Source: Pachysolen tannophilus NRRL Y-2460
Taxonomy: Eukaryota
Reading direction: 5' to 3'
NCBI GenBank assembly: GCA_001661245.1
Contig: KV454011.1
Span: forward strand, 1,838,041 to 1,902,040
Length of the DNA stretch: 64,000 bases
Shown here piece after piece: positions 6,367 to 7,115 of this stretch (the first letter of the stretch is position 1; each line of letters starts with the position of its first letter). The notes under the pieces are model-generated. The model saw nothing but the letters and a program-made list of their open reading frames with translations, searched no databases and had not been told where the DNA came from. Both the position numbers and the translations under genes were made by a program.

Positions 6367-6456
6367 CGAGGATATGCTTTCTTACACAACTTTGAATTTT
6401 CTGGAATTAAGTTTCTAGATATCGTGTTCTCAGTTGTTTACTTATCCTCGACAAGT
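6367..6456 (+). ncRNA. SNR44: snR44-like H/ACA snoRNA, 3' hairpin plus ACA box only
   Basis: Lower stem CGAGGATA 6367-6374 / TATCCTCG 6443-6450. Pocket TTCTTACA (6379-6386) + TTTA (6437-6440) is complementary to 25S rRNA UAAA-[U]A-UGUAAGAA (U1056 region, recalled). Upper stem CAACT/AGTTG. ACA at 6451-6453, 14 nt from the pocket top. Confidence 0.85.
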
Positions 6457-6580
6457 TTTTTTTTTTTTTTTTTTTCTTCTTCTGTTGTACAATATCTCCT
6501 ACACCACTACATACACTCAATAGCTTCACCGTACTTTTTTTGTATGTCATGGGCAAATCAACTAACAAAATTCTTTTTAG

Positions 6581-6840
6581 GTTACATTGGTGAATTCGAG
6601 TACATTGATGATCACAGATCAGGTAAAATAGTTATTCAATTGAACGGTAGATTGAACAAGTGTGGTGTCATTTCACCAAGATACAATGTTAAAATTGCAG
6701 ACATTGAAAAATGGACAGATAACTTATTACCTGCAAGACAATTTGGTTTTGTTATTTTAACAACTTCAGCAGGTATTATGGACCATGAAGAAGCAAGAAG
6801 AAAACATGTTTCAGGTAAAATTCTCGGGTTTGTCTACTAA
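6581..6840 (+). CDS. RPS22: 40S ribosomal protein S22 (uS8), coding exon 2, on the strand opposite exon 1
   Basis: (G)[33 protein letters not shown]...KILGFVY*; preceded by branch AACTAAC (6560-6566) and 3'ss TTTTTAG (ends 6580); no in-frame uS8 N-terminus upstream on plus. Confidence 0.95.
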
Positions 6841-7046
6841 ATAAATAAATAAAATAAAATAAAATAAAAATAAAAAATTGTGTATTGATAAAGAAAACAA
6901 AGATATTTTGCTAATAGAAGTGTAGTATGACGATTGTGACAGCCACCATATATACCTCCTTTGGTAACTTGAACTAACAATTTACGCCTTTTTCTTTCTT
7001 CTCTTTTAAATCTTTCAAGTCCATAAAGAATCTTTGCCACTATTTT

Positions 7047-7115
7047 TATTCTTCCTGAAACTTAAAAGACAGCATGGGACTGCTATCCGATCAGACCATC
7101 CAGTTATCATTCAGG
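7047..7115 (-). ncRNA. SNR44: snR44-like H/ACA snoRNA, 5' hairpin plus H box only
   Basis: Minus strand reads CCTGAA-TGATAACT-[upper stem]-TTTAA-GTTTCAGG-A-AGAATA. The pocket pairs with 18S rRNA UUAAA-[U]C-AGUUAUC (U106 region, recalled). H box ANANNA at 7052-7047 is 14 nt from the pocket top. Confidence 0.85.

What the first reader, a model, noticed from the sequence alone, without database searches (positions are those of the whole stretch)
6367..7115. The intronic H/ACA snoRNA snR44 is cut at its hinge: one hairpin per strand, both with intact guide geometry
Seen: the minus-strand intron half holds a hairpin plus H box (7115-7047, AGAATA). The plus-strand half holds a hairpin plus ACA (6367-6456). 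Each pocket lies exactly 14 nt from its box. Established (recalled): snR44 resides in the RPS22B coding intron and guides 18S U106 and 25S U1056; the pockets here (GATAACT/TTTAA and TTCTTACA/TTTA) complement those two sites. Inference: the break falls between the hairpins, sparing both, so the RNA may act as two single-hairpin guides (as in trypanosomes and archaea) or as a bimolecular H/ACA RNP. Yeast H/ACA RNAs normally need both hairpins in cis.
Basis: partly seen in the sequence, partly recalled or inferred. Interest (0 to 1): 0.9.

Follow-up and report, generated by a model that had tools for sequence, protein, structure and literature searches.

The report
snR44 and RPS22 split by inversion
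A 0.7-kb piece of DNA lies flipped inside a yeast ribosomal-protein gene, so the gene's two exons and the two halves of its intron-borne guide RNA snR44 sit on opposite strands; every part is still intact, which points to a very young lesion or an assembly error, not to an evolved two-piece RNA.

Summary
The snR44 5' hairpin and H box lie on the minus strand (7117-7047). The 3' hairpin and ACA lie on the plus strand (6368-6453). A model built from four collinear relatives finds only these two half-matches in 64 kb (71.4 and 35.9 bits).

Exon 1 and the 5' splice site are on the minus strand (7334-7196). The branch site, 3' splice site and exon 2 are on the plus strand (6560-6840).

In 11 of 11 related loci examined the exons are collinear, and four of these carry an intact snR44. 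Synteny shows that about 6362-7046 is the flipped piece.

I found no decay and no adaptation. The exons jointly encode a fully conserved uS8. The arms share no significant similarity with each other.

The window is most likely Pachysolen tannophilus, from a draft assembly. Whether the flip exists in cells, and whether a second RPS22 or snR44 copy exists, therefore stays open.

My odds:
- real recent lesion, 0.42
- artefact, 0.38
- real and functional (trans-splicing, half-guides), 0.12

The parts
7202..7334 (-). RPS22 (uS8) exon 1: ATG at 7334-7332, 44 codons plus the first base of the Gly codon
   Evidence: Translation. It is 82-95% identical to exon 1 of 11 related loci.
7196..7201 (-). 5' splice site GTATGT of the coding intron
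   Evidence: Read. The same site follows exon 1 in L007-L009 (GTATGT) and L010 (GTAAGT).
7053..7117 (-). snR44 5' hairpin: lower stem 7115-7110 / 7059-7054, guide strands 7109-7102 and 7066-7060
   Evidence: Rfam 55.8 bits; own model 71.4 bits; alignment with relatives.
7047..7052 (-). H box AGAATA, 14 nt after the upper stem
   Evidence: L007 carries the same hexamer.
7040..7046 (.). Right end of the flipped piece (best estimate)
   Evidence: blastn homology of the minus strand to L007 and L008 runs from exon 1 down to 7046/7045 and stops there. The hinge in relatives is only 4-6 nt.
6841..7039 (+). 3' flank of RPS22, carried along in the flip. It holds an AT-rich stretch and a TATATA element.
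   Evidence: Inferred from position. The resemblance of its minus strand to the start of a 3' hairpin was tested and rejected.
6581..6840 (+). RPS22 exon 2 with stop codon TAA at 6838-6840. Its phase fits exon 1.
   Evidence: It is 87-95% identical to relatives.
6560..6580 (+). Branch site AACTAAC (6560-6566) and 3' splice site TAG (6578-6580)
   Evidence: Relatives have the same layout.
6368..6450 (+). snR44 3' hairpin: lower stem GAGGATA 6368-6374 / TATCCTC 6443-6449, guide strands within 6375-6387 and at 6437-6442
   Evidence: Own model 35.9 bits, E 1.9e-06; Rfam 20.3 bits; fold -24.6 kcal/mol, z -3.40.
6451..6453 (+). ACA box, 14 nt after the upper stem, followed by a run of 20 T
6362..6367 (.). 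Left end of the flipped piece (best estimate). To its left lies the upstream region of the aldo-keto reductase gene.
   Evidence: Inferred. The 3' hairpin starts at 6368 and relatives have a 4-6 nt hinge. There is no homology to relatives left of it.
7338..7372 (-). Probable 3' end of a 5'-UTR intron of RPS22: TACTAAC at 7372-7366 and TAG at 7340-7338, three bases before the ATG
   Evidence: A candidate 5' splice site GTACGT lies at 7761. This part is inferred only.

Best explanation
A single simple inversion of about 685 bp (roughly 6362-7046) flipped four things: the 3' hairpin of snR44, the rest of the intron, RPS22 exon 2 and about 200 bp of 3' flank. The ancestral gene ran on the minus strand as exon 1, intron with a whole snR44, then exon 2.

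I take the inversion to be a real but evolutionarily very young lesion of the sequenced strain. The locus is broken. Exon 1 is transcribed with a 5' splice site and the 5' hairpin, but has no branch site or acceptor in cis. Exon 2 and the 3' hairpin lack the gene's promoter.

Under this reading uS8 would come from a second RPS22 copy, as in a related yeast. The half-snoRNAs most likely do not accumulate, because eukaryotic H/ACA RNPs are built on two hairpins.

Shown: the anatomy, the ancestral state, the simple nature of the flip and the absence of decay. Inferred: that the flip exists in cells, that a second copy exists, and that the halves are inactive.
For: Ancestral state:
- In 11 of 11 closest related loci, exon 1 lies upstream of exon 2 on the same strand.
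- Four of these 11 (L007-L010) carry a whole collinear snR44 at 74-87 bits.
- Flanking genes of L010, L007 and L008 are collinear with the window's minus strand, so exon 1 keeps the old orientation.

A clean flip:
- Minus-strand homology stops at 7046/7045, right after the H box.
- The two intron parts add up to about 375 nt, inside the relatives' range of 257-397 nt.
- The arms share no significant similarity with each other: 163, 371 and 97 of 500 shuffles reach the observed scores.
- No sizeable inverted repeat flanks the piece. An assembler would therefore have had no obvious reason to flip it.

Youth:
- The two exons together give a 130-aa uS8 that is 93.8% identical to P0008.
- That protein has 0 changes at columns invariant in 65 full-length homologues, and 1 change at columns at least 95% conserved.
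- Both splice sites, the branch site, both boxes and all guide strands are intact.

A second copy is plausible. L010 (intron plus snR44, syntenic with the window) and L056 (intronless) come from one metagenome assembly at coverage 13.99 and 14.03. They differ at 10% of exon 2 bases.

The two-hairpin requirement: truncating a eukaryotic H/ACA snoRNA to one hairpin reduces activity (PMC12745780, passages read).
Against:
- The window's genome is not held, so a second RPS22 or snR44 copy is unproven.
- An inversion that breaks a ribosomal-protein gene should be selected against, whereas an assembly error does not care what it hits. That argues for the artefact rival.
- The assembly is a draft with contig N50 in the 10^4 bin (PMC13232491, table passage).
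- The break falls in a hinge that makes up only 1-3% of the intron. This explanation leaves that to chance.
- An exact TATAAAAG box at 6212-6219 points into the flipped piece. Only 10 exact copies occur on both strands of the window. This hints that the plus-strand half could be transcribed.
Confidence: 0.42

Rival explanations
1. The flip is not in the organism. A short piece was put in the wrong way round during assembly, gap closure or later handling of the sequence. The real locus is then an ordinary collinear RPS22 with an ordinary two-hairpin snR44.
For: - Everything is perfectly intact, as expected if nothing ever happened in vivo.
- The gene is a ribosomal-protein gene, and breaking it should be costly.
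- The assembly is a draft (PMC13232491, table passage).
- Five runs hold only 84-88% of the sampled words of 5900-7700. The assembly and the reads therefore differ somewhere in this stretch, though I could not see where.
Against: - The window has no N.
- No sizeable inverted repeat flanks the piece.
- The flip is exactly reciprocal, with no gain or loss. That is what two breaks and a rejoining give, and it is not typical of assemblers.
- None of the other 28 ORFs scanned in the window shows halves on opposite strands; 23 of them have Pfam matches.
Confidence: 0.38
2. The inversion is real, fixed and tolerated because the parts still work. Two convergent pre-mRNAs would be joined by spliceosomal trans-splicing to give RPS22 mRNA. 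The two snR44 halves would act as single-hairpin guides or as a two-piece RNP.
For: - Every signal needed is kept: 5' splice site, branch site, acceptor, matching phase, both pockets at 14 nt from their boxes.
- There is no decay in 130 codons.
- A consensus TATA box faces the plus-strand half.
- Convergent transcription would make the two RNAs complementary over the shared 3' flank (inference).
- Single hairpins bind yeast H/ACA proteins in vitro (PMC5778458, passage read).
Against: - Lack of decay is explained equally well by youth or by an artefact.
- No repeats were found that could pair the intron halves.
- Pairing of the two half-RNAs is not significant (19 of 300 shuffles).
- A search for papers holding 'Pachysolen tannophilus' and 'trans-splic' found none.
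- Two-hairpin architecture matters for eukaryotic H/ACA activity (PMC12745780).
- All 11 relatives examined are collinear.
Confidence: 0.12
3. The piece flips back and forth, or is polymorphic, so that cultures hold both orientations and the assembly caught the broken one.
For: It would reconcile an intact gene with an inverted assembly. Five runs hold most but not all words of the stretch.
Against: No inverted repeats of useful length lie at the ends. The best match there is a 5-nt AGAAT/ATTCT pair. No recombinase gene was seen among the 28 ORFs scanned.
Confidence: 0.06
4. An old inverted duplication of the gene was followed by complementary decay. One copy kept exon 1 and the 5' hairpin. 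The other kept the 3' hairpin and exon 2.
For: The minus strand just after the H box (7039-7010) looks a little like the start of a 3' hairpin. Against L007, only 7 of 500 shuffles reach the score; against L010, 45 of 500 do.
Against: - Against L008 and L009 the same stretch is at chance (143 and 405 of 500).
- The two arms do not resemble each other.
- A profile of the hairpin start, built from the relatives, finds the plus copy first and does not list the minus stretch even at E 1000.
- There is no room for decayed exons.
Confidence: 0.02

Closest known systems
snR44, the H/ACA snoRNA in the coding intron of RPS22B (S. cerevisiae) or RPS22A (C. albicans, L. elongisporus, C. parapsilosis, C. 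orthopsilosis); Rfam RF01262
   Same: Same host gene and same intron. The guide strands, H box, ACA box and pocket-to-box distances match (PMC5033589 and PMC9045821, passages).
   Different: The two hairpins lie on opposite strands about 600 bp apart and cannot be one transcript. The host gene's exons are separated in the same way.
Single-hairpin H/ACA guide RNAs of archaea and H/ACA-like (AGA-box) RNAs of trypanosomatids
   Same: Each half here is one hairpin with a pocket and a 3' box. That is the whole architecture of those RNAs (PMC5778458 and PMC12745780 passages; PMC2613932 abstract only).
   Different: Those RNAs are evolved, independently expressed genes in lineages whose proteins cope with one hairpin. 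Here the halves are fragments of a two-hairpin gene in a budding yeast, with no evidence that they are expressed or stable.
eri-6/7 of C. elegans: gene halves on opposite strands joined by trans-splicing
   Same: A gene is cut within an intron by an inversion, with the splice donor on one strand and the acceptor on the other (known from recall; search listing and abstracts only).
   Different: There the chimeric mRNA is documented. Here no RNA evidence exists, and no repeats that could pair the halves were found.
RPS22A/RPS22B-type paralogue pairs in yeasts (one intronless copy, one intron copy hosting snR44)
   Same: A related yeast syntenic with the window has such a pair, L056 and L010. This would make loss of the intron copy survivable.
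   Different: A second copy in the window's own genome could not be looked for.

Membership tests
snR44 (Rfam RF01262), box H/ACA snoRNA | Covariance-model match at or above the gathering score (33 bits) | tested here: met
   55.8 bits for 7117-7010 minus, carried by the 5' hairpin alone. The plus-strand half alone reaches only 20.3 bits. With a model built from relatives it reaches 35.9 bits, E 1.9e-06.
snR44 (Rfam RF01262), box H/ACA snoRNA | Hairpin-hinge-hairpin-tail in one RNA | tested here: not met
   The halves are on opposite strands, at 7117-7047 (minus) and 6368-6453 (plus). Four relatives have both hairpins in cis.
snR44 (Rfam RF01262), box H/ACA snoRNA | H box ANANNA after the 5' hairpin and ACA after the 3' hairpin | tested here: met
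   AGAATA at 7052-7047 and ACA at 6451-6453. Whether ACA lies 3 nt from a mature 3' end cannot be told without RNA.
snR44 (Rfam RF01262), box H/ACA snoRNA | Conserved guide strands placed 14-16 nt from the box | tested here: met
   The guide strands are identical to the invariant columns of four relatives. The distance is 14 nt in both hairpins, counted on the sequence.
snR44 (Rfam RF01262), box H/ACA snoRNA | Complementarity to 18S U106 and 25S U1056 | not tested
   There is no rDNA in the window. The 18S pseudouridine-106 target is stated in PMC9045821. The 25S site is recalled and is not in that paper.
snR44 (Rfam RF01262), box H/ACA snoRNA | Stable RNA bound by Cbf5, Gar1, Nop10 and Nhp2 | not testable with these tools
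Single-hairpin H/ACA guides (archaeal or trypanosomatid type) | Independently expressed one-hairpin RNA with its own 3' box | tested here: inconclusive
   The architecture of each half fits. Expression is untestable. A TATA box faces the plus-strand half, but such boxes occur 1.9 times per kb per strand.
Inversion-split genes rescued by trans-splicing (eri-6/7 type) | Donor and acceptor halves intact, on opposite strands, with matching phase | tested here: met
   GTATGT at 7201-7196 (minus); AACTAAC and TAG at 6560-6580 (plus); the Gly codon is split 1+2.
Inversion-split genes rescued by trans-splicing (eri-6/7 type) | Chimeric mature mRNA | not testable with these tools
   No RNA data were reachable.
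Inversion-split genes rescued by trans-splicing (eri-6/7 type) | Sequences that pair the two precursors | tested here: not met
   No significant repeat lies between the intron halves. The only pairing is what convergent read-through would create, which is an inference.
RPS22 / uS8 gene | Complete conserved coding sequence | tested here: met
   130 codons over the two exons, 93.8% identical to P0008, with 0 changes at invariant columns of 65 homologues. The exons are not collinear, however.

The most novel reading that the evidence does not exclude
The inversion is real and fixed in Pachysolen tannophilus. RPS22 mRNA would be made by spliceosomal trans-splicing of two convergent transcripts. 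snR44 would survive as two separately made single-hairpin H/ACA RNPs, or as a two-piece RNP. That would be a natural budding-yeast case of both phenomena at one locus.
Probability: 0.1. Interest if true: 0.95.

Novelty: new variant of a known kind. Interest (0 to 1): 0.5.

Why it matters
If the flip is real, one locus offers a natural experiment on two questions. Can the halves of a eukaryotic H/ACA snoRNA accumulate or act when separated? Can a budding yeast join exons from two transcripts? Both can be checked cheaply with existing reads, PCR and a northern blot.

If the flip is an artefact, it is a local error in a widely used reference assembly. The error would hide a ribosomal-protein gene and a snoRNA from annotation. 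No RPS22 protein named for this species appeared among the 120 best database hits.

Tried and rejected
- **Reads.** Read support for either orientation is unknown.
- **Sequencing runs.** No RNA holder was listed. Five runs hold 84-88% of the sampled words, which cannot tell the junctions from other differences.
- **Own genome.** It is not held, so there was no search for a second RPS22 or snR44.
- **Cluster look-up.** The look-up meant to find a named Pachysolen RPS22 was not available.
- **Earlier findings.** Nothing relevant came back.
- **Inverted duplication.** Rejected on the arm-versus-arm tests and the profile search. The weak resemblance is taken as chance.
- **Cis rescue.** No branch-site-like motif lies on the minus strand between 7200 and 6010. 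The next one belongs to the reductase gene's own intron at 6003-6009.
- **Bimolecular pairing of the halves.** Not significant.
- **Wider assembly trouble.** No other gene in the window is split across strands.
- **Weak Rfam rows (RUF1, IS009, mir-8250).** All are far below gathering and taken as chance.
- **Literature.** Searches for Pachysolen with trans-splic, RPS22, snoRNA or ribosomal protein gene plus intron gave nothing on this locus.

Full report
**Observation.**
- Rfam's snR44 model matches 7117-7010 on the minus strand at 55.8 bits (gathering score 33). The alignment covers only the 5' hairpin and the H box.
- A permissive scan of 6150-7250 adds a second snR44 row on the plus strand, 6333-6456. 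It scores 20.3 bits (E 0.2) and covers only the 3' hairpin and the ACA region.
- To get a sharper test I built a covariance model from four related yeasts in which snR44 is whole. I ran it over all 64 kb, both strands, filters off.
- Of 28 rows up to E 10, two stand out. One is 7119-7007 minus (71.4 bits, E 1.5e-14), with the 3' hairpin deleted in the alignment. The other is 6337-6459 plus (35.9 bits, E 1.9e-06), with the 5' hairpin deleted. The next row has 13.9 bits (E 0.21).
- The H box AGAATA is at 7052-7047 and the ACA at 6451-6453.
- Counting on the sequence, 14 nt separate the upper stem from the box in both hairpins.
- The four guide strands are identical to columns that are invariant in the relatives.

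The host gene is cut by the same break.
- Exon 1 of RPS22 (uS8) is on the minus strand, 7334-7202, followed by GTATGT at 7201-7196.
- The branch site AACTAAC (6560-6566), the acceptor TAG (6578-6580) and exon 2 (6581-6840) are on the plus strand.
- The Gly codon is split 1+2, so the phases fit.
- The two transcription units converge. The 5' half of the intron runs leftwards to about 7046. The 3' half runs rightwards from about 6362.
- Just upstream of the ATG there is also what looks like the end of a 5'-UTR intron: TACTAAC at 7372-7366 and TAG at 7340-7338. S. cerevisiae RPS22B likewise hosts snR44 in its second intron (PMC9045821, passage).

**Ancestral state and the kind of rearrangement.**
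- A scan of metagenome contigs with exon 2 matched 585 stretches. Of these, 469 encode relatives and the best 80 were kept. I examined the 11 closest (L001-L010, L056; 87-94% identity).
- In 11 of 11, exon 1 lies upstream on the same strand.
- Seven are intronless. Four (L007-L010) have an intron with a whole, collinear snR44 at 74-87 bits.
- Genes flanking RPS22 in L010, L007 and L008 are collinear with the window's minus strand. Exon 1 therefore keeps the old orientation, and the piece holding the 3' hairpin, exon 2 and about 200 bp of 3' flank is the flipped one.
- Minus-strand homology to L007 and L008 stops at 7046/7045, one or two bases after the H box. The relatives' hinge is 4-6 nt. 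The breaks therefore lie at about 7040-7046 and 6362-6367.
- The two intron parts add up to about 375 nt, within the relatives' 257-397 nt. Nothing was lost or gained.
- I tested whether this is an inverted duplication with complementary decay. The arms do not resemble each other (163, 371 and 97 of 500 shuffles reach the scores).
- A faint likeness of 7039-7010 (minus) to the start of a 3' hairpin is uneven across relatives (7, 143, 405 and 45 of 500). It vanishes in a profile search, which lists the plus copy first and never lists the minus stretch up to E 1000.
- No sizeable inverted repeat flanks the piece. The rearrangement is one simple inversion of about 685 bp.

**State of preservation.**
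- Joined only inside a script, the exons give a 130-residue uS8 that is 93.8% identical to P0008.
- It has no change at any column invariant among 65 full-length homologues, and one change at columns at least 95% conserved.
- All splice signals, both boxes and all guide strands are intact.
- I found no adaptation to a split life either. There is no cis branch site for exon 1 on the minus strand down to 6010.
- The tail of one half-RNA and the leader of the other show no significant pairing (-22.7 kcal/mol; 19 of 300 shuffles do as well).
- One detail points the other way. An exact TATAAAAG at 6212-6219 faces the plus-strand half, and its mirror copy at 6187-6180 faces the reductase gene. Only 10 exact copies occur on both strands of the window, although looser TATA matches are common at 1.9 per kb per strand.
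- The rest of the window looks healthy. Of 28 ORFs scanned, 23 have Pfam matches and none is split across strands. There is no N.

**Origin.**
- The window's malic enzyme is stored in the protein database with CTG read as alanine, on a contig of 2,514,465 bp.
- An 80%-identical paralogue on a contig of the same length is named for Pachysolen tannophilus NRRL Y-2460.
- A paper's table lists that assembly as 12.60 Mb, with a longest scaffold of 2.51 Mb and contig N50 in the 10^4 bin. It is a draft (PMC13232491, passage).
- No protein named for this species was among the 120 best hits to exon 2. That fits a gene the annotators could not model, but hidden cluster members could not be listed.

**What could not be done.**
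- The genome is not held. A second RPS22 or snR44 copy is therefore unknown.
- Five runs hold 84-88% of the sampled words of 5900-7700, and none is RNA.
Whether the inversion exists in cells is open.

**Explanations.**
- **Young lesion or artefact.** All the evidence says the half-snoRNAs are by-products of one clean inversion that is either very young or not biological.
- **For a real event:** the flip is exactly reciprocal, has no flanking repeats and lies inside gap-free sequence.
- **For an artefact:** the flip breaks a ribosomal-protein gene, shows no decay at all, and sits in a draft assembly.
- **Survivability:** a related, syntenic yeast carries a second, intronless RPS22 (L010 and L056, equal coverage, 10% different in exon 2). 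A real lesion could therefore be survivable.
- **My odds:** real recent lesion with inactive halves, 0.42; artefact, 0.38; real and functional, 0.12; polymorphic or flipping piece, 0.06; inverted duplication, 0.02.
- **The hinge position** of the break covers 1-3% of the intron. No hypothesis explains it, and I take it as chance.

**Comparison with the known.**
- The parts are snR44 and RPS22 by every feature testable on sequence. The one exception is the defining one, that the two hairpins form one RNA.
- Each half has the build of a single-hairpin guide of archaea or trypanosomatids, but nothing shows that it is expressed.
- Work on eukaryotic H/ACA RNPs stresses the benefit of two hairpins (PMC12745780). 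Single hairpins do bind the yeast proteins in vitro (PMC5778458).
- The gene layout recalls eri-6/7 of C. elegans (recalled; listing only).
- I found no paper on this locus in Pachysolen.

**Verdict.**
Interest is moderate: the locus is truly odd and cheap to resolve, but the ordinary readings (young lesion or mis-oriented assembly) together hold about 0.8 of the probability.

Noticed in passing
window 58950-59221 (-): Full-length snR10 H/ACA snoRNA, 164.4 bits, E 1.5e-35. It is intact and two-hairpin, so this genome otherwise keeps normal H/ACA architecture.
   Followed up: no
window 6180-6187 (-) and 6212-6219 (+): Two exact TATAAAAG boxes lie back to back, 24 nt apart, between the reductase gene and the flipped piece. 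One faces each way. Only 10 exact copies occur on both strands of the 64-kb window.
   Followed up: partly
window 7338-7372 (-), candidate donor at 7761: A TACTAAC, a long T run and a TAG lie three bases before the RPS22 ATG. This suggests a 5'-UTR intron, as in S. cerevisiae RPS22B. The only donor-like site upstream is GTACGT at 7761.
   Followed up: partly
window 7557-7582 / 7592-7617: A 26-nt inverted repeat, 88% complementary with a 9-nt loop, lies in the RPS22 upstream region. A chance-level miRNA row overlaps it.
   Followed up: no
window 7950-8400: ORF-free stretch with higher G+C (up to 0.39, against 0.30 for the window) and no Rfam match even at E 1. It could hold an undescribed non-coding RNA or a long UTR.
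   Followed up: partly
window 3327-4692 (+): A GH72 glucanosyltransferase (Gas-type) gene is read in two frames. Pfam positions 28-246 and 241-313 fall in the two pieces, with AACTAAC at 4038-4044. This is an ordinary intron, not a break.
   Followed up: partly
window 8862-10784 (+): The malic enzyme gene has an 80%-identical paralogue on the same contig. The stored copy of the window's protein reads CTG as Ala.
   Followed up: partly
L010 and L056: One metagenome assembly holds, at equal coverage, an RPS22 with intron and snR44 (syntenic with the window) and an intronless RPS22. This is a paralogue pair like RPS22B/A outside Saccharomyces.
   Followed up: partly
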